Source: Acidobacteriota bacterium
Lineage (GTDB): Bacteria > Acidobacteriota > UBA6911 > RPQK01 > JAPXNP01
Direction of reading: 5' to 3'
Assembly: GCA_033811955.1 (NCBI GenBank)
Contig: JAPXNP010000001.1
Location: 1 to 32,889 of the forward strand
DNA: 32,889 bases
Position numbers and translations under genes: made by a program. The notes below the pieces were generated by a model. It was given only the letters and a program-made list of their open reading frames with translations, made no database searches and was not told the origin of the DNA. Below are positions 1 through 32,889 of the stretch, piece by piece (position 1 is the first letter of the stretch; each line of letters opens with the position of its first letter).

Positions 1-1311
1 TAAACGAACTCACCGAGAATGCTTACCGGCGATTCGGATATAAGATTGTTCCGGTGCTTCTAAGCCGGAAAGAACACCGCCACTTCTACGAGGGGTTTTC
101 CAACGAGATCATTTGGCCGATGTTTCATGATCTCCAAACGATGTGTAACTTCAACCCGGAGTACTGGAAATCGTATTTGGCGGTGAATCGCAAGTTCGCC
201 GAGAGCGTATCGAGCCTCTTGAATCCTGACGACTTCGTGTGGGTCCACGATTACCACCTGATGTGTTTCGCCGGGGAGTTGCGTTGTATGGAGAATGAAT
301 GCCCTTGCGCTTTCTTTACATTCCTTTTCCTCCCCTGGACATCTTCTCAAACTCCCTTGGCGGCTGGAGCTCCTCAGGGCACTTCTGGATTTCGACTTGG
401 TGGGCTTCCAGACCGAGAGAGATCGGCGCAATTTCTTGGAGTGCTTGCGAGCCATTGTGCGAAGCGTCTCGATCCGAGGAAGAGGAAGGGTGATCGGCGT
501 TTCCTGGCAAGACAGGGCTCGGAGAATCGGAGCATTTCCCATCTCCATCGATTTCGACCGTTTCGCCGCGGATGCTAGAAAACCAAGGGTAGTGGAGTTA
601 ATGCATCGTATCCGGGAGAATCTGGCCAACCGGACGCTCTTGCTCGGGGTCGACCGACTGGACTATACGAAGGGAATCCCCTATCGCCTTCTCGCCTTCC
701 GCGACGCTCTCTTCCGCTACCCACAGCTACGGGGAAAGGTTACGCTCGTACAGGTAGTCGTCCCAAGTCGGACCGGAGTTCCGAAATACCGGGAGCTGCG
801 GGCACAGATCGAGCGTCTCGTGGGAGGAATCAACGGCCAGTTCGCCCGCACCGACTGGGTACCGGTCCACTACGTCTTTCGCTTCTTGACTCCGGAAGAA
901 CTGCTCGCCTTTTATCGGGCGGCGGACATCGCGTTGATCACCCCTCTAAAGGACGGAATGAATCTCATCGCGAAGGAATACTGCGCCGCCAACGTGACGA
1001 ACAACGGGATCGTTATCCTTAGTGAGTTCGCCGGCGCCGCTTCCCAGCTCCAGGTGGGCGCCCTCCTCGTCAATCCTTACCATATCCAGGCGGTAGCCGA
1101 CGCGATCTTACAGGCTTATCAAATGGACAGCGCCGAGAAGAAAGCACGTATGAAGAAGATGCGCCAAGTGGTGCGCAAGCAAAACGTCTTCTGGTGGGTC
1201 GACGCGTTCCTCAAAAGCGCGATCTCACAGGATCTAGGCAGTTTTCCCTACGTGCAGGAATACGTTCCCCAGCTCGACTCGGGAGGCTTTCCTTTCGAGA
1301 TGTCTTCCTAA
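1..1311 (+). pseudogene. otsA: Trehalose-6-phosphate synthase (GT20, OtsA-like), 5' end outside window, reading frame disrupted at least twice
   Basis: Phase 0 is open from nt 3 (NELTENAYRRFGYKIVPVLLSRKEHRHFYEGFSNEIIWPMFH...FVWVHDYHLMCFAGELR), matching the OtsA N-half. The conserved FxxIPFPxxxIF block appears in another phase (RFLYIPFPPLDIF, ~nt 308-346). The rest (LPWRLELLRALLDFDLVGFQTERD, RLDYTKGIP, TPLKDGMNLIAKEY, LSEFAGAA) is in the third phase, ending at the stop at 1309-1311. Confidence 0.8.
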
Positions 1312-1611: not shown

Positions 1612-3122
<1,511 letters not shown>

Positions 3123-27134: not shown

Positions 27135-29633
27135 CTAGTTCTCCATCCGCAATACTTCCAGAACCGGCCGTCGCAATAATCCCCAACTGAGCGAGACGCC
27201 GACCAGCACGGTGGCAATCGGTATAAACGCAGCCAAGAGAACCGTAGTCCTCCCGAACGGAACGAACGGCACTTCCAAGATCCATTTACATAGTCCCCAC
27301 CCGGCGATTTCGGCCAGCAACAGCCCCGCAAACAGTCCCAGCATCCCCACGGCGGCGTATTCGGCCAGCAGGATGCGACGGAGTTGGCCACGAGAAGCTC
27401 CCAGAGTGCGCAAAAGAATCACCTCGCGCATTCTGGCCCAGCGCCCCCCGGCCAGCGCAACCACCAGCGTCAGAAAGGCAACCGCCAGGCTAAACGAACC
27501 CATGAAGTGAACGACAAAGCCCACGCGATCGAGCACCGCTTCCACCGTCTCTAAAACAAAGGACAAATCGACGGCTGACACCGTCGGGTACCGCTCCAAC
27601 ACCTTCCGCTGAACTTCCGCGGAGGTTGCACGGTCGGCGACTCGCCCGACAAGGACATGAAATTGTGGTGCATCTTCCAAGACTCCGGAAGGAAACACGA
27701 CAAAGAAATTGGGCTGAAAGCTCCTCCATTCCACCTGCCGAATGCCGCCCACCTCCACCGACACCGGGACTCCTTGGACATCGAACGTGAGCCGGGAGCC
27801 CACCTCGACCTGGAGGCTCCGGGCGATTTCTTCCTCGAGGGTAACGTAAACCCGGTCACCCCGGCGATGCTGGACCCGGCCGCGGACGAGCCGCTCCGAA
27901 TCGTCCAGCTTCTCCCGGTAAGTGCAACGGTATTCGTGCTCATAGGCCCATCGTTCCTGCCCGTTCTTCTCGATGTCGTCGACGTTCACCCCCTCCACGG
28001 AAAGCAACCGCATCGTCACCACCGGCACCTGCTGGAGCAGCCGCATCCCCGCCTCGCCGGCCAGCCGGGAGACCCCTTCCAGTTCGTCCGTCTGCACGTC
28101 GAAGAGCACCAAATTCGGCCGGTCCTCACTGTCGTTGAAGCGAATCTCGGCCAACAGTCCAGCTTCCAAGAGGGAGAGAAGGGCCACCAGAAAAGTGCCC
28201 AGTGCCACCATAGAGACCATGAGCAGCGTTTGATTGCCCGGCCGGTAAAGGTTCGCAATCCCCTGGCGCCATTCGTACGAGAACCTTCTCCGCGCCAGAG
28301 CACGGGCGGCTCTCATCAGGGCGAAGCTCACTCCCCACGCCGACAGCATGACCGCCGTCAGTCCGCCTACGAATCCGAACGCAAGAAGAGCGTCTCCCGT
28401 GACCTGGCGGCTCCAGGCAACCAGACCTCCGAGTGCCGCGATCCCTAACACCCAGTATCCGGCCGGCCATTCTTGGGATGGTTCGACCTCGCGCCTCAAA
28501 GCGGCCAGTGGAGGTACACGGCGCAAAGGAACCGCCGGCACGAGGGCGAAAAAAAGCGCGCCCCCCAGACAGAGAGCCACTGCCTCCACGACCGGTTGCC
28601 ACCGTAGTCGAGGCTCGACGGTAAACGGAAGCCAGTCCTGGAGCAGCCAAGGCAAAATACTTTGAGCGGCGACACCTGCGACAGCCCCAACAGCCAGCCC
28701 TCCCAGACTCAACCCGCCTATCTGAAAGACAAAGACGAGAACCGCCTCCCATCCCCTGCAGCCCAGGCAACGTAGCGTCGCCACAACCGGCGCCTGACGC
28801 CGCGCCGACAGCAGCACCGCACTACTGACGGCTGCCGCCGCCAACACCAACGCCACCAGCCCCGCCAACCCGAGGAAGCGGTTCAAATTCCGAAAGCTGC
28901 GCCCGAAAGAAGCCCGACGATCCTCAATCGTCGTAAATCTAATATTCATGTTCTCGGCGGCACCCCGCAGAACCGGCAACTCGGCCGCAGGATCCCGGAG
29001 CTTCCCAAAGTACCGATATCGCACGCGGCTGCCGACCTGGATGAGTCCCGTCTCATGCACAAACCGCAACGGGATGAACACGCGGGGAAACAACTCGGAG
29101 ACTACCGCCGCCTCGCCCGCCACCCGAACGACCGCACCCGCAATACGAAATTCCGCATTGCCGATCCGTACCCGGTCCCCCATCTCAAGACTGAACTGCA
29201 GGAGAAGCGTCTGATCTACCAGAGCCAGGCGGTCCTCCTGCCAGCCGTTCGCCGCGGCGGGAGGATCGGTCTCCAGCGAGCCGTAAAACGGATAGTCGCC
29301 CTGAAGGGCACGAACTTGGACGAGGCGCGACATTCCGCTCGGCGGAAACACAGCCATCGAACTGAAATCCACCTCCTGCGCCCACTGGGAGGGAGATTCC
29401 CGAATCACCCTTTCGATCTCCTCGGGAAACGGTTGACTGCTGGAGAGAGCCACGTCCGCTCCCAGTAATGTCTTGCTTTCTTCTTGAACCGCCGCGTCCA
29501 GGCTTCCGGAGAAAAGCCGAACCGAGATCACCGCGGCCGCGCCCACCGCCACCACCAGAAAATACAGCACCAGCCTCCGCCACGAGTGCCGGAAGTCACG
29601 CCCGGCCATTCGGAGTATCCAGGCCGTTCTCAT
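27135..29633 (-). CDS. ABC transporter permease with two FtsX-type domains (YbbP-like)
   Basis: 832 aa with N- and C-terminal four-helix FtsX-like modules separated by large loops. Its start overlaps the ATPase stop (4 nt). Confidence 0.8.
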   Translation of the reverse strand: MRTAWILRMAGRDFRHSWRRLVLYFLVVAVGAAAVISVRLFSGSLDAAVQEESKTLLGADVALSSSQPFPEEIERVIRESPSQWAQEVDFSSMAVFPPSGMSRLVQVRALQGDYPFYGSLETDPPAAANGWQEDRLALVDQTLLLQFSLEMGDRVRIGNAEFRIAGAVVRVAGEAAVVSELFPRVFIPLRFVHETGLIQVGSRVRYRYFGKLRDPAAELPVLRGAAENMNIRFTTIEDRRASFGRSFRNLNRFLGLAGLVALVLAAAAVSSAVLLSARRQAPVVATLRCLGCRGWEAVLVFVFQIGGLSLGGLAVGAVAGVAAQSILPWLLQDWLPFTVEPRLRWQPVVEAVALCLGGALFFALVPAVPLRRVPPLAALRREVEPSQEWPAGYWVLGIAALGGLVAWSRQVTGDALLAFGFVGGLTAVMLSAWGVSFALMRAARALARRRFSYEWRQGIANLYRPGNQTLLMVSMVALGTFLVALLSLLEAGLLAEIRFNDSEDRPNLVLFDVQTDELEGVSRLAGEAGMRLLQQVPVVTMRLLSVEGVNVDDIEKNGQERWAYEHEYRCTYREKLDDSERLVRGRVQHRRGDRVYVTLEEEIARSLQVEVGSRLTFDVQGVPVSVEVGGIRQVEWRSFQPNFFVVFPSGVLEDAPQFHVLVGRVADRATSAEVQRKVLERYPTVSAVDLSFVLETVEAVLDRVGFVVHFMGSFSLAVAFLTLVVALAGGRWARMREVILLRTLGASRGQLRRILLAEYAAVGMLGLFAGLLLAEIAGWGLCKWILEVPFVPFGRTTVLLAAFIPIATVLVGVSLSWGLLRRPVLEVLRMEN

Positions 29634-30385
29634 CGACGCACTTCCTCGAGAGGTGTCTTCTCCGCGATGATGCGCCCAGCCCGCAGCGTGACGATCCGCA
29701 TGCAGCGGGACGCCAAATCTCCGTTGTGGGTCACCAGCAGAAGTCCCGCCTCAAACTCAGCGTGCAACGAGAACAGCAGCTCCTCCACCCGCGCAGCCGT
29801 CTCCGCATCCAAATTGCCCGTCGGTTCGTCACAGAACAAGATACGCGGCCGGTTCACAAAGGCTCGGGCCAAGGCCACCCGCTGCTGCTCTCCCCCGGAC
29901 AACTGAGCCGGATAGTGATGGAGGCGTTCCGCGAGGCCTACGCGTTCCAGGAGATCCGAAGCAATTCTTCGCGCCGACGTGTCTCCCAGCAGCTCCGCCG
30001 GAACCATGACGTTCTCGAGAGCGGTCAGAGTAGGTATCAGCTGAAAGGTCTGGAAGACGAATCCCACCCATCGCCGGCGCAAATCCGCCAGTGCATCCTC
30101 CGTCAGCCGTTCCAGGTCGTGCCCGGCCAGGACCACCCGTCCCGCAGTCGGACGATCGAGCCCGGCGGAAAGGGCGAGAAGCGTTGACTTTCCGCTGCCG
30201 GAGGGCCCTACGACGGCACAGCTTTCGCCCTTCGCCAGTACCAGGCTCACATCCCGCAACACCTCGAGGCGCTCGGTTCCGCTCAAAAACGATTTGTAAA
30301 TCCCATTCAACGCCAAAATCTGCGCATCGGTCCCCATCGTCGGTTTTCTCGTCTCCGCCCCGGCAGGCGCCGGCTGGTTCAGCAT
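29630..30385 (-). CDS. ABC transporter ATP-binding protein (YbbA/LolD-like)
   Basis: Walker A GPSGSGKST, Q-loop, signature LSGGEQQRVALARA, Walker B ILFCDEPTGNLD. An alternative start at 30337 (MGTDAQ) would leave a 67-nt rather than a 19-nt divergent spacer. Confidence 0.9.
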   Translation of the reverse strand: MLNQPAPAGAETRKPTMGTDAQILALNGIYKSFLSGTERLEVLRDVSLVLAKGESCAVVGPSGSGKSTLLALSAGLDRPTAGRVVLAGHDLERLTEDALADLRRRWVGFVFQTFQLIPTLTALENVMVPAELLGDTSARRIASDLLERVGLAERLHHYPAQLSGGEQQRVALARAFVNRPRILFCDEPTGNLDAETAARVEELLFSLHAEFEAGLLLVTHNGDLASRCMRIVTLRAGRIIAEKTPLEEVRR

Positions 30386-30404
30386 ATACTCTCAACGTAT
30401 ACCT

Positions 30405-31061
30405 ATGCTTTACGCCTGGCTGCCGCTTCTGGTTTCGTTTTCCCTTGTTCCGCAGCAGCAGAGTTCCGAGGAGCAAAACACCGTCACGATCCTGGTCGTA
30501 GGCGACAGTCTGAGTGCCGGCTACGGTCTCTCGCCGAAACAGGCCTGGCCCGCGCTGGTGGAAGAGAAATTGAAGCGGGAAGGTTGGAACGTCCGCGTGC
30601 AAAACGCCGGCGTCAGTGGCGATACCACTTCCGGAGGTCTTCGGCGGATCTCGTGGGTACTGCAAGACTGTCCCGACATCCTCATTCTTGAACTAGGCGC
30701 CAACGACGCTTTGCGGGGGATTCCGTTGGACGCGACCCGGACCAACCTACGAGAAATGATCTCTCGGGCTCGGAAGACGTGTCCGGACGTCAAGATCGTC
30801 CTGGCCGGGATGCTGGTCCCACCCAACCTCGGGCCGGACTATACCCGCGAGTTCCGCGAAATCTTTCCCGATCTGGCTCGAACCGAGAAGGTCGATCTGA
30901 TCCCTTTTCTCCTGGAAAAAGTGGCCGGCCGGCCGGAATTCAATCTTCCCGACGGCATCCATCCCAACGCCCGAGGCCACGAGATTGTGGCAGACACCGT
31001 TCTGAAGCATCTCAGGCCGCTTCTTGCCGGCCGTTCCACCTCGGCTGAAGCCGACAGATGA
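30405..31061 (+). CDS. tesA: SGNH/GDSL arylesterase (acyl-CoA thioesterase I / lysophospholipase L1-like)
   Basis: Block I VVGDSLSAGYG, block III GANDAL and block V DGIHPN, with a signal-like N-terminus. It is divergent from the ybbA/ybbP-like pair, as in E. coli. Confidence 0.85.
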   Translation: MLYAWLPLLVSFSLVPQQQSSEEQNTVTILVVGDSLSAGYGLSPKQAWPALVEEKLKREGWNVRVQNAGVSGDTTSGGLRRISWVLQDCPDILILELGANDALRGIPLDATRTNLREMISRARKTCPDVKIVLAGMLVPPNLGPDYTREFREIFPDLARTEKVDLIPFLLEKVAGRPEFNLPDGIHPNARGHEIVADTVLKHLRPLLAGRSTSAEADR

Positions 31062-31076
31062 CAAGAAACAAAGACG

Positions 31077-31546
31077 GGACATGCACGAGTTTTCGGTCCT
31101 AACCGATTGAACCTAAGGGGCTTGGAAAGTGAGTCCGGCACGGCAAGTTCTTCTCGGGGAACGTCGGCGTGAGCCGTTGACTGCGGGGCAAGGAGGTCTA
31201 TCCGTCATCGTACCGACCCCCTGGGACAGTAAGACAGAGGGGCTCGTCTGGAGACATCGTCGCGTACATCGCGGGCGCGGTGGGTCATCAAGCAGGAAAT
31301 CTCGAGGCGAAGCTCAGGCAACCGGCGGTACCGGAAAAGCTTGGAGAGGTAAGAGCGACGGTCGACGTCCTCGCCCAGGGCGGACGCACAACCGTTGCCT
31401 CGCCGCCTGATCAGATCACACAAGCGGCGGACAAGCCGACGGTCTCCGCTCGACACGGGTCAAGCTTCCCCGGGAAAGGAACATTGGCCCCGGACCGGGA
31501 TTCGAACCCGTGTTTCTAAGCACTTGCGGACAATATTCGGGCGTGT
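31077..31546. repeat. Mosaic repeat unit, copy A (470 bp)
   Basis: 31077-31159 is identical to 32363-32445 (83 bp) and 31518-31546 is identical to 32804-32832 (29 bp), both at offset 1286. The interior is alignable at roughly 65-78% identity by hand alignment. Confidence 0.9.
31205..31456 (-). CDS. Conserved mini-ORF inside repeat copy A (possible relic of a DDE-transposase C-terminus)
   Basis: The core DLIRRRGNGCASALGEDVDRRSYLSKLFRYRRLPELRLEISCLMTHR aligns with the copy B ORF. The substitutions show 3-base periodicity, peaking at this strand's third codon position. Confidence 0.3.
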   Translation of the reverse strand: MSSGDRRLVRRLCDLIRRRGNGCASALGEDVDRRSYLSKLFRYRRLPELRLEISCLMTHRARDVRDDVSRRAPLSYCPRGSVR

Positions 31547-31627
31547 CACCAATTTCTACAGCAGTCGGGCAGAGTCGGAGACAGCGCCGCTTGCTTTTCT
31601 TACAATAAGGCGCGAGGAACTACGTTG

Positions 31628-32311
31628 ATGCGAACGAGAGCGATGTCGGTAGTCTTTCTTGCTCTTTTGTACTTCTCCCCTTTCCTGTGGGCGGAGGAGT
31701 GGCGCCCCTTGTTCAACGGCCGGGACCTTGAGGGTTGGGAGCACGTCGGTCCGGGCAGGGTCTATGTGGAGGACGGCCTGATGAAAACGGAGGGAGGAAT
31801 GGGGCTGCTGTGGTACACCCGGGAGAAATTCGGCAACTGCACTATCCGGGTCGTATACCGCACCACCAGCCCTGAGGACAACTCGGGCATTTTCATCCGC
31901 ATCCCAGAGCCCCCCAAGGACCCTTGGCAGGCGGTCCACACCGGTTACGAAATCCAGATTCTCGAACGTTGGCCCGAAGAGACTCACCCCCGTTCCGAAC
32001 ATCAAAAGACATTCGGCGACGACTGGCATATGAGCGGTGCCATCTATTCCATGAGTAAAGCTTTAAAGCATGCGCAGCGCCCACACGGCGAGTGGAACAC
32101 GATGGAGATCGTGCTGGATGGACCCCGGACCCGAGTCTACCTGAACGGAGAGCTGGTCAACGACTACGTCGAAGGTCAGGAAGTGCCGCCCCGTCAGCAC
32201 GATTACGAACCCATCCGCGGTCCCCGACCGGACGAAGGGTACATCGGGATCCAGAACCACCATGAACCGCAGACGGTTCATTTTCGTGAAATCAGCGTGA
32301 AACGAAACTAA
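31628..32311 (+). CDS. Secreted DUF1080 (3-keto-disaccharide hydrolase-like, concanavalin-type fold) protein
   Basis: Signal MRTRAMSVVFLALLYFSPFLWA, then W.PLFNG.DL.GW, NSGIFIR, GYEIQIL, GAIY, EWN.MEI and IGIQNH...V.FR.I.V, the pattern typical of DUF1080. A TTG at 31625 is also possible as the start. Confidence 0.8.
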   Translation: MRTRAMSVVFLALLYFSPFLWAEEWRPLFNGRDLEGWEHVGPGRVYVEDGLMKTEGGMGLLWYTREKFGNCTIRVVYRTTSPEDNSGIFIRIPEPPKDPWQAVHTGYEIQILERWPEETHPRSEHQKTFGDDWHMSGAIYSMSKALKHAQRPHGEWNTMEIVLDGPRTRVYLNGELVNDYVEGQEVPPRQHDYEPIRGPRPDEGYIGIQNHHEPQTVHFREISVKRN

Positions 32312-32362
32312 GCAACCCGAGAAGCGTGGGAGCGCATCTTGCTGTGTTGCTGTTGGAAACGT

Positions 32363-32832
32363 GGACATGCACGAGTTTTCGGTCCTAACCGATTGAACCT
32401 AAGGGGCTTGGAAAGTGAGTCCGGCACGGCAAGTTCTTCTCGGGGGGAGGTCGGCGTAAGAAGTTGTACGGGACAACGACATCTATTCAATATCGTATGC
32501 CCCCCGGAACACTAAGTGGGACGATCTATAGTGACGGAAGCATCCTCACGTGCGTGGTGCTTGCGGTGGACTACAAGGCTGCTGATCTCGAGACGAAGCT
32601 CGCGCAGCCGGCGGTACCGGAAGAGTTTCGAGAGGTTAAAACGACGGTCAACCTGGTTGCCGAAGACAGGCGCACAGCGGTCACCTCGCCGCCTCATCAG
32701 CTGAAAGAGAGGCAGACAATTAGACGCCATCCGTTCGACACGGGTTGAGCTTCCCCGGAGAAGGAAAACGGATCCCAGACCTAGACTCGAACCCTGGGCT
32801 TACAAGCACTTGCGGACAATATTCGGGCGTGT
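32363..32832. repeat. Mosaic repeat unit, copy B (470 bp)
   Basis: See copy A. Same orientation and same length. Confidence 0.9.
32512..32730 (-). CDS. Conserved mini-ORF inside repeat copy B
   Basis: QLMRRRGDRCAPVFGNQVDRRFNLSKLFRYRRLRELRLEISSLVVHR. 27 of 38 core codons encode the same residue as copy A on this strand. Confidence 0.3.
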   Translation of the reverse strand: MASNCLPLFQLMRRRGDRCAPVFGNQVDRRFNLSKLFRYRRLRELRLEISSLVVHRKHHAREDASVTIDRPT

Positions 32833-32870
32833 GATCACTTTCCTGACAGTATTCCGGCGTGACATCTATC

Positions 32871-32889
32871 CTCATCACCAGTTTTCGGG
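32871..32889. repeat. Possible start of a third repeat unit, cut by the window end
   Basis: CATCACCAGTTTTCGG matches the unit start CATGCACGAGTTTTCGG (32366-32382) at 15 of 17 positions with one gap. It lies 39 bp after copy B ends. Confidence 0.35.

What the first reader, a model, noticed from the sequence alone, without database searches (positions are those of the whole stretch)
31077..32832. Exactly 470-bp mosaic direct repeats bracket the DUF1080 gene, with perfect end blocks and a diverged core
Two same-orientation copies (31077-31546 and 32363-32832) lie at a constant offset of 1286 bp. The first 83 bp are 100% identical, and so are the last 29 bp. The ~358 bp between them has diverged to roughly 65-78% identity. 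The small indels there cancel out, so both units are the same length. Uniform decay after a segmental duplication would not leave the ends untouched. Invariant termini with a drifting interior fit two classes of explanation. One is a non-autonomous mobile element whose ends are recognised in trans. The other is a module with cis-acting sites or RNA motifs at both ends, or end-restricted gene conversion. Copy A starts 16 bp after the tesA stop, and its 3' block sits ~80 bp upstream of the DUF1080 start. The unit may therefore also supply the upstream regulatory region of that gene. I cannot assign the unit to any repeat or RNA family I know.
Basis: seen in the sequence. Interest (0 to 1): 0.72.

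Follow-up and report, generated by a model that had tools for sequence, protein, structure and literature searches.

The report
Recombination-mosaic repeats flanking a DUF1080 gene
Two copies of a roughly 480-bp non-coding stretch bracket a small gene in an uncultured Acidobacteriota genome, and their perfect ends and diverged middle are best explained by ordinary copy-to-copy recombination in a variable population, not by a mobile element or a known RNA.

Summary
Copies 31077-31546 and 32363-32832 share an identical 83-nt 5' block and an identical 29-nt 3' block. The core between them is about 67-70% identical.

The "invariant termini" reading fails.
- The blocks vary between strains: five SNPs in the 83-nt block in a lineage 98.3% identical to the window.
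- They are only about 68% (5' block) and 24/29 (3' block) identical in a sister species.
- They are about 57% identical to a third, diverged copy at another locus.
- Three derived substitutions in the 5' block occur in both window copies. Other strains, the sister species and the third copy keep the ancestral bases. So the identity was copied recently, not conserved.

No dispersed copies, terminal inverted repeats, Rfam family, conserved RNA fold or convincing ORF were found.

Strains 98-99.98% identical carry three haplotypes:
- a single copy without DUF1080, whose junction lies exactly in the 29-nt block;
- A-core / DUF1080 / A-core;
- the window's A-core / DUF1080 / B-core.

Best reading: an old local duplication of intergenic, probably regulatory, DNA, reshaped by gene conversion, crossover deletion and allele switching. 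The element's own function is unknown.

Caveat: A and B on one molecule rests on a single assembly path across the 83-nt repeat.

The parts
30405..31061 (+). tesA-like GDSL arylesterase gene, the left anchor of the locus
   Evidence: Pfam PF13472/PF00657. An identical protein is found on 17 contigs of related strains.
31077..31546 (+). Repeat copy A (A-type element). Homology to the other copy continues weakly to about 31556-31576.
   Evidence: This is the only type found next to tesA in all strains.
31077..31159 (+). 83-nt 5' block of copy A, identical to 32363-32445. It carries lineage-specific derived bases at 31098 (C) and 31117-31118 (GG).
31118..31136 (+). Small hairpin GGGCUUG-GAAAG-UGAGUCC. 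It is the only local structure with some compensatory support, and its G-U pairs imply the + strand.
   Evidence: Support is weak: two pairs are broken in the sister species.
31160..31517 (+). Core of copy A (A-type)
31290..31414 (+). Segment best conserved among the A, B and C types (31290-31364 and 31390-31414). It lies in the core, not at the ends.
31518..31546 (+). 29-nt identity island of copy A. This is the crossover interval of the single-copy (DUF1080-less) haplotype.
31547..31624 (+). Spacer upstream of DUF1080 with a sigma-70-like site (GAGACA-17-TACAAT, 31578-31606)
   Evidence: a consensus match only
31628..32311 (+). DUF1080 / 3-keto-disaccharide hydrolase family gene (alternative TTG start at 31625). 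It is present or absent among strains together with one repeat copy, as a 1286-bp unit.
   Evidence: Pfam PF06439, E = 3e-46; haplotypes
32312..32362 (+). Spacer between the DUF1080 stop codon and copy B
32363..32832 (+). Repeat copy B: 83-nt block 32363-32445, B-type core 32446-32803, 29-nt island 32804-32832
   Evidence: The B core is independently assembled in L023.
32833..32889 (+). Right flank leading to a 121-aa orphan gene that lies beyond the contig end. SNPs at 32838 and 32844 are linked to the B-type core. A promoter-like site lies at 32843-32872.

Best explanation
The unit is a lineage-restricted, roughly 480-bp stretch of non-coding intergenic DNA, most likely part of the upstream or regulatory region of the gene to its right. 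It was duplicated locally long ago, so that two paralogous copies flank a DUF1080 gene. The cores (A-type and B-type) are old, diverged versions. They differ from each other about as much as either differs from a third copy (C-type) at another locus.

The perfect end blocks are not conserved recognition sites. They are the product of recent RecA-type exchange between the two copies, by gene conversion or crossover, which can still act where enough identity remains and cannot act across the roughly 30% diverged core.

The same identity blocks serve as crossover points in the population. A crossover in the 29-nt island deletes DUF1080 plus one copy and gives the single-copy haplotype. A conversion tract running from the 83-nt block to the island overwrites the B core with an A core and gives the L005/L028 haplotype. 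The result is alternative ("switched") upstream regions for the 121-aa gene among strains that are otherwise 96-99.9% identical.

Shown: the haplotypes, the junction positions, the non-conservation of the blocks, and the shared derived SNPs. Inferred: the direction of the events, the involvement of RecA, and a regulatory role for the element.
For: (1) Three haplotypes occur among strains 98.3-99.98% identical to the window. The single-copy form has the tesA flank, the A core, the island and then the B flank, so its junction lies inside the 29-nt island. L005 and L028 have an A core in both copies. The window and L023 have a B core on the right.
(2) The blocks are not conserved. There are 5 SNPs in 83 nt in the lineage that is 98.3% identical to the window. 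The sister species (TesA 93%, 121-aa protein 88% identical) is about 68% identical in the 5' block, with a 7-nt insertion, and 24/29 in the 3' block. The C-type block is 57% identical against 58-64% for the core.
(3) Bases C at 31098 and GG at 31117-31118 are derived. T and AA are found in the L014 lineage, in the right-hand copies of L005 and L028, in the sister species and in the C-type. The derived bases are present in both window copies, so sequence was copied between the copies recently.
(4) A-B core identity is 67%, A-C 64% and B-C 58%, so the A/B split is old.
(5) No other copies exist in this contig or any fetched locus (nhmmer). A 20-mer from the 5' block gave only 3 chance hits in one genome each of 185,579 species. 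JGI metagenomes returned only this same locus. Viral contigs, plasmids and phages gave nothing.
(6) There is no Rfam, tRNA or tmRNA hit. The pairs of the A-copy MFE structure are kept in B no better than in permuted controls on either strand (z from -0.8 to +0.5). The RNAalifold covariation terms are unfavourable. The 5'-3' duplex of -38 kcal/mol in the window is not conserved in the sister species.
(7) The divergent patch is sharply local. L023 compared with single-copy strains is 61-77% identical in the core and 96-99% right after it. This matches the described phenomenon of switched intergenic regions (PMC5890482).
Against: Gene conversion between repeats usually homogenises interiors at least as well as edges. 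Identity only at the ends needs the extra assumption that the cores had already diverged too far to recombine.

The 29-nt island is shorter than the more than 40 bp of identity reported for efficient RecA processing in B. subtilis (PMC4824099). It sits inside the B haplotype between the B core and the B-linked SNPs at 32838 and 32844. It is therefore either a very short conversion patch or under some constraint.

In the sister species the two contigs break about 22 nt past the 5' block and 6 nt before the 3' block. This could mean the same constant-ends, variable-core layout recurs there, which would hint at function.

Co-residence of A and B on one molecule rests on one contig path through an 83-nt exact repeat. 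The direction of events (gain or loss of DUF1080) is unresolved. The element's own function was not determined.
Confidence: 0.6

Rival explanations
1. Functional non-coding module. The element is a new structured RNA or long cis-regulatory leader whose two ends must match a species-specific partner or each other, with a fast-evolving interior. The identical ends would then be maintained by selection.
For: Three diverged types are still alignable over more than 360 nt, with conserved islands at 31290-31364 and 31390-31414. The small hairpin 31118-31136 shows some compensatory changes and + strand G-U pairs. The right-hand neighbour is always a co-oriented gene with a promoter-like site. The sister-species contigs break at both block boundaries. 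A, B and C keep nearly the same length, 362/361/362 nt, despite 6-7 indels each.
Against: There is no Rfam match even at E <= 10. There is no excess of conserved pairing, and the covariation terms are positive. The predicted terminal helix is broken at 3 of 11 and 4 of 10 pairs in the sister species and its duplex is not conserved. The blocks evolve about as fast as the neighbouring spacer between species and faster than the genome average between strains.
Confidence: 0.15
2. Assembly chimera. A-type and B-type are alleles of one locus in different co-occurring strains, and the assembler joined DUF1080 plus the 83-nt block from a two-A-copy strain to a B core from another strain. Under this reading the mosaic pair does not exist on one molecule.
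For: The window is a metagenome-assembled contig that ends 57 nt after copy B. The only other contigs that span DUF1080 into the second copy have an A core (L005, L028). L008, which is 99.9% identical to the window, breaks inside the block. L023 starts exactly 30 nt (k-1) before the end of the block. Many assemblies break inside the element.
Against: The right-hand copies of L005 and L028 carry T/AA in the block, whereas the window's right-hand block is of the window type. The window path is therefore not simply an L005-like strain joined to a B core. L008, the closest relative, also has the window-type block on the DUF1080 side. Assemblers that use k larger than 83 can resolve this repeat.
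Confidence: 0.12
3. Small protein gene. The conserved middle encodes a peptide of about 60-95 aa, either the minus-strand ORF 31205-31456 / 32512-32730 or the plus-strand ORF 31280-31519 / 32464-32748. The variable and constant parts would then reflect coding constraints.
For: Both complementary frames stay open over 50 codons in A, B and C. Their shared second codon position is the least variable: 36 vs 53 and 56 substitutions. Gene callers have called ORFs on both strands (P0123, P0124, P0125, P0126).
Against: dN/dS is 0.47-0.75. Indels of 1 and 2 nt shift the frame at both ends of the block. There is no Pfam, NCBIfam, PHROG or PADLOC hit. In 1.84 billion representative proteins the only relatives are the element's own copies. 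AlphaFold2 mean pLDDT is 55 for both frames. No convincing ribosome-binding site is present.
Confidence: 0.07
4. Non-autonomous mobile element, or a cassette recombination site (MITE-like or attC-like), whose ends are recognised by a transposase or integrase. The 1286-bp unit would be a mobile cassette.
For: The unit made of DUF1080 plus one element copy is present or absent among near-identical strains. A related copy lies in a different context (L030).
Against: There are no inverted repeats and no target-site duplication. There are only two copies in 33 kb and none elsewhere in the large collections. No transposase or integrase gene lies in the immediate neighbourhood; the rest of the contig was not fully annotated. 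The element is 3-8 times longer than any attC. Its ends vary between strains. The deletion junction lies anywhere within a 29-nt identity, as expected for homologous rather than site-specific exchange.
Confidence: 0.03

Closest known systems
Switched intergenic regions / horizontal regulatory transfer (Oren et al. 2014, as summarised in Piggy, PMC5890482)
   Same: Highly divergent alternative sequences (about 67-70% identity) occupy the same position upstream of the same gene (the 121-aa ORF) in strains whose flanks are 96-99.9% identical. The boundaries are sharp.
   Different: Here both alleles may lie in tandem in one genome, separated by a gene. The alternative alleles are homologous to each other rather than unrelated. 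No expression data exist.
Concerted evolution (gene conversion) and RecA-mediated deletion between direct repeats
   Same: Derived SNPs are shared by both copies of one genome only. The single-copy haplotype has its junction inside a shared identity block. One haplotype has the second core fully overwritten by the first (L005, L028).
   Different: Identity is confined to the ends and the interior stays diverged. The 29-nt island is at or below the usual minimal length for efficient RecA exchange (PMC4824099).
MITEs and modular intergenic repeats such as pneumococcal BOX elements (conserved end modules, variable middle; from my own knowledge)
   Same: The layout is superficially the same: constant ends, a variable interior and an intergenic position.
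   Different: There are no inverted termini, no dispersal (two copies at one locus plus one distant relative) and no target-site duplication. The ends are not conserved between strains or species.
Integron gene cassettes (ORF plus attC)
   Same: A unit made of one gene plus one repeat is gained or lost as a block.
   Different: The element is about 470 bp, against 57-141 bp for attC. No integrase or attI was seen near it, there is no array, and the R/L core-site symmetry is absent.

Membership tests
Non-autonomous transposable element (MITE-like) | Terminal inverted repeats or other conserved transposase-recognised ends | tested here: not met
   The repeat finder reports 0 inverted pairs in 29000-32889. 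The ends differ between strains and species.
Non-autonomous transposable element (MITE-like) | Multiple dispersed copies with target-site duplications and empty sites | tested here: not met
   There are only two copies in the contig. Collection scans return only this locus or chance 20-mers. The "empty site" still holds one full copy. The complete genome was not available.
Integron cassette / attC | A 57-141-bp imperfect palindrome with R''/L''-L'/R' sites, an array next to intI/attI | tested here: not met
   The element is 470 bp and has no inverted symmetry. The neighbours are tesA, an ABC transporter, a 121-aa ORF and a Reg_prop protein. intI was not searched for across the whole genome.
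Any Rfam 15 RNA family, tRNA or tmRNA | Score at or above the family's gathering threshold, or ARAGORN detection | tested here: not met
   cmscan at gathering thresholds found only 16S rRNA. At E <= 10 there were two chance-level hits of 15-19 bits. ARAGORN found 0 genes. The GGTTCGAATCC-like motif on the minus strand (about 31497-31509) has no cloverleaf and its stem is not kept in copy B.
Structured non-coding RNA (new family) | Base pairs conserved through compensatory changes across diverged copies | tested here: inconclusive
   There is no excess over permuted controls and the covariation terms are unfavourable. Only one 7-bp hairpin has support. Only 3-4 diverged sequences exist, and the C-type lacks its 3' part.
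Diversity-generating retroelement (template/variable repeat pair) | Differences confined to adenines of one repeat; a reverse transcriptase nearby | tested here: not met
   The 105 substitutions fall on A, C, G and T of copy A as 21, 31, 40 and 13, and there are six indels. A reverse transcriptase was not searched for.
Switched intergenic region (allelic replacement by recombination) | Two divergent sequences (<90% identity) at the same locus, defined by conserved flanking genes, in closely related strains | tested here: met
   Upstream of the 121-aa gene, A-type is found in L001, L005, L006, L007, L014 and L025, and B-type in the window and L023. The cores are 61-77% identical and the flanks 96-99%.
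Gene conversion / concerted evolution between paralogous repeats | Paralogues within a genome share derived states that orthologues in related lineages lack | tested here: met
   C at position 22 and GG at positions 41-42 of the block are in both window copies. T and AA are in the L014 lineage, the second copies of L005 and L028, the sister species and the C-type. A formal tract test such as GENECONV was not run.

The most novel reading that the evidence does not exclude
The element is an undescribed functional non-coding module of this Acidobacteriota lineage, either a long leader or regulatory RNA or a protein-binding region. It would exist in several old specificity types (A, B, C), with ends kept identical within each genome. 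The matched ends would let cores, and the gene between them, be shuffled, lost or regained as a cassette by homologous exchange. The fact that a sister species' contigs also break at both block boundaries would then reflect the same architecture.
Probability: 0.12. Interest if true: 0.55.

Novelty: new member of a known kind. Interest (0 to 1): 0.27.

Why it matters
The main value is as a worked example. A pattern of perfect ends and a drifting middle looks like a mobile element or an RNA scaffold. Population and sister-species comparison shows it is recombination history instead. The ends are identical only within one genome, they share derived mutations, and they mark the crossover points of a gene-loss haplotype.

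Biologically, it documents strain-level gain and loss of a DUF1080 (3-keto-disaccharide hydrolase family) gene, and alternative upstream regions for an orphan gene, in an uncultured Acidobacteriota population that recurs in many public metagenome assemblies. It also explains why many assemblies of this organism break at this locus. If the element proved to be functional, it would add a lineage-specific regulatory module, but nothing here requires that.

Tried and rejected
- Rfam at gathering thresholds and at E <= 10, and ARAGORN: nothing relevant.
- Minus-strand tRNA-like reading of the GGTTCGAATCC motif: no cloverleaf, and the stem is not kept in copy B (read from the sequence).
- Plasmid and phage BLAST, and two viral-contig scans: no match.
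- Genome-collection scan with GGAAAGTGAGTCCGGCACGG: three chance 20-mer hits only.
- Metagenome scan designed to exclude the A-type (CACGGCAAGTTCTTCTCGGGGB): no hit.
- Scan with the 3' block: only the same locus, plus three chance hits.
- Closing helix between the 5' and 3' blocks: rejected, because the sister species breaks 3 of 11 and 4 of 10 pairs and has no equivalent duplex.
- Sigma-54-like GG-N10-GC site at CGGTACCGGAAAAGC: not kept in B or C (read from the alignment).
- Coding tests (codon periodicity, dN/dS, four HMM libraries, the 1.84-billion-protein profile search, AlphaFold2 on both frames): no convincing support.
- DGR: rejected on the substitution spectrum.
- A tesA relative at 63% identity has no element downstream of it.
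Full report
**Observation.** The repeat is real and the coordinates are right. The repeat finder and MAFFT show 31077-31159 = 32363-32445 (83 nt, 100%) and 31518-31546 = 32804-32832 (29 nt, 100%), at a constant offset of 1286 bp. The 358-nt interior carries 105 substitutions and six indels (+1, -2, -2, +3, -1, +1) that net to zero. Core identity is about 67-70%. Each block occurs exactly twice in the window, with none expected by chance. Weak homology continues for about 10-30 nt beyond the 3' block, so that block is an island inside a roughly 480-500-bp duplicated unit. The flanking genes are a GDSL arylesterase (tesA-like) and a PF06439/DUF1080 protein. The window is an entire 32,889-bp contig of an Acidobacteriota MAG and ends 57 nt after copy B.

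**Is it a known RNA, a gene or a mobile element?** The tests do not support any of these.
- Rfam finds only the 16S rRNA gene at gathering thresholds and two chance-level hits at E <= 10. ARAGORN finds nothing.
- There are no inverted repeats.
- ORFs on both strands have no Pfam, NCBIfam, PHROG or PADLOC match.
- The element has no match in plasmids or phages, and 18-20-nt probes from its two blocks have no exact match in IMG/VR viral contigs.
- A 20-mer from the 5' block gave only three chance matches in one genome each of 185,579 species.
- Two metagenome scans returned only this same locus or chance 20-mers.
- An nhmmer profile of the element finds no further copy in the window or in any of the 32 fetched loci.

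It is not a dispersed repeat.

**Population context.** Looking up the identical TesA protein and its near-identical variants gave contigs from strains 98.3-99.98% identical to the window. They fall into three haplotypes.
- H1 is a single copy without DUF1080. It occurs in L001, L006, L007, L009, L010, L014, L017 and L025, and probably L021, whose contig ends 12 nt past the 3' island. It has the tesA flank, an A-type core, the 29-nt island and then the right flank of copy B. The last A-specific base is just left of the island and the first B-flank base is just right of it. The junction therefore lies inside the 29-nt identity, exactly what a crossover between copies A and B would leave.
- H2 occurs in L005 and L028. 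It has both copies and DUF1080, but the second copy has an A-type core with no mismatch to copy A's core.
- H3 is the window's arrangement: A core, DUF1080, B core.

The B core joined to the 121-aa gene is independently assembled in Logan contig L023, with 2 mismatches in 474 nt, both in the window's last 10 nt. Against single-copy strains, L023 is 61-77% identical in the core and 96-99% immediately downstream. The divergence is a sharply bounded patch.

**Are the end blocks invariant?** No.
- The L014/L017/L021/L022 lineage, 98.3% identical to the window overall, has five SNPs within the 83-nt block. That makes the block more variable than the genome average.
- A sister species (TesA 93% and 121-aa protein 88% identical) has a 5' block only about 68% identical, with a 7-nt insertion, and a 3' block with 5 differences in 29.
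- A third, more diverged homologue (C-type; L030/L031) came from a profile search of 1.84 billion representative proteins with a spurious-looking minus-frame ORF. It sits next to a different gene, a divergent 514-aa ORF, not tesA. Its block is 57% identical to the window's, against 58-64% for the core.
- The segments best conserved across A, B and C lie in the core: 31290-31364 and 31390-31414.

**Why are the ends identical within the window?** The polarity of the SNPs answers this. At block positions 22 and 41-42, the L014 lineage, the second copies of L005 and L028, the sister species and the C-type all have T and AA. Both copies in the window have C and GG. Two paralogues that share derived states absent from orthologues is the signature of recent copying between them. 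Meanwhile A-B (67%), A-C (64%) and B-C (58%) core identities are similar, so the core types are old. The simplest account is an old duplication whose cores diverged beyond the reach of homologous exchange, while the ends keep exchanging. Different tracts are visible in different strains: in the window the whole block is copied, and in L005 and L028 the tract runs from about position 43 to the island. Recombination frequency falls steeply with divergence and needs a stretch of identity (PMC4824099). Sharply bounded alternative intergenic alleles in otherwise near-identical strains are a described phenomenon, called switched IGRs or horizontal regulatory transfer (PMC5890482).

**Tests of functional alternatives.**
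- Structure: the pairs of the A-copy MFE are kept in B no better than in spectrum-preserving permutations on either strand, and the same holds in reverse (z from -0.8 to +0.5).
- RNAalifold on A/B/C, and on six 5' regions, gives unfavourable covariation terms.
- The attractive 5'-3' closing helix of the two-sequence fold (-38 kcal/mol duplex) is broken at several pairs and has no equivalent in the sister species.
- Only a 7-bp hairpin at 31118-31136 shows some compensatory change.
- Coding: two complementary frames stay open in A, B and C, and their shared second codon position is somewhat less variable. However, dN/dS is 0.47-0.75, frame-shifting indels flank the block, there are no homologues beyond the element's own copies, and AlphaFold2 gives pLDDT of about 55 for both frames.
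- The substitution spectrum excludes a DGR-type template/variable pair.
- A promoter-like site follows each copy and each copy precedes a co-oriented gene. A role as upstream regulatory DNA is therefore plausible but untested.

**Caveats and loose ends.**
- (a) A and B on one molecule depends on this contig's path through an 83-nt exact repeat. L008, the closest strain, breaks inside the block, and many assemblies break within the element. The right-hand block types argue against a simple chimera, because the window and L008 have the window type while L005 and L028 have T/AA. Only reads can settle this.
- (b) The 29-nt island is flanked on both sides by B-linked differences and is short for RecA. 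It is either a tiny conversion patch or mildly constrained.
- (c) The sister-species contigs stop about 22 nt after the 5' block and start 6 nt before the 3' block. That would fit the same constant-ends, variable-core layout, or mere strain bubbles.
- (d) A, B and C span 362, 361 and 362 nt over the shared alignment despite 6-7 indels each. This may be chance.
- (e) The direction of events, gain or repeated loss of DUF1080, cannot be fixed.

**Verdict.** It is best explained by ordinary homologous recombination acting on an old local duplication of intergenic DNA in a recombining population. The mobile-element and conserved-termini readings are not supported. The function of the element is unknown and it belongs to no known family. 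Interest is modest.

Noticed in passing
window 1613-3122 (-), with 295-1311 (+): The 16S rRNA gene is not followed by an ITS with tRNAs or by a 23S gene. The next feature downstream is a GT20 (trehalose-6-phosphate-synthase-like) ORF, and ARAGORN finds no tRNA anywhere in the contig. This looks like an unlinked 16S gene.
   Followed up: partly
L023 about 1000-2100 (Reg_prop / beta-propeller gene downstream of the 121-aa ORF; beyond the window's right end): There is a second patch of raised strain divergence here: 83-96% identity against about 99% further along. This suggests another recombination-imported or diversifying segment in the convergent 682-770-aa Reg_prop protein gene.
   Followed up: no
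L005 7832-8197; L001 11464-11829 (just beyond window end): The 121-aa ORF downstream of copy B is an orphan. It has no Pfam, NCBIfam, PHROG or PADLOC family. Only two homologous protein clusters exist among 5.8 billion clusters, both from this lineage.
   Followed up: partly
window 31077-31438, 32363-32723; L030 1-362: The A, B and C versions span 362, 361 and 362 nt over the same alignment columns, although each pair differs by 6-7 indels of up to 7 nt. This may point to a length or spacing constraint, or it may be coincidence.
   Followed up: no
window about 31497-31509 (minus strand): A T-loop-like GGGTTCGAATCCC motif is followed by GTCCGGGGCCA on the minus strand of copy A. It resembles a tRNA 3' end, but there is no cloverleaf, ARAGORN is negative and the stem is not kept in copy B.
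   Followed up: yes
L030/L031 1-362 and 472-2016: The C-type homologue of the element lies 110 nt from the start of a divergently oriented 514-aa ORF with no Pfam domain. Both contigs end at the same point inside the element, so its 3' part and right neighbour are unknown.
   Followed up: partly
L004, L008, L002/L003/L026, L022, L024, L027, L029 contig ends: Independent assemblies of this organism repeatedly terminate inside the element, at 21-411 nt from its start. The locus is a systematic assembly breakpoint for this population.
   Followed up: partly
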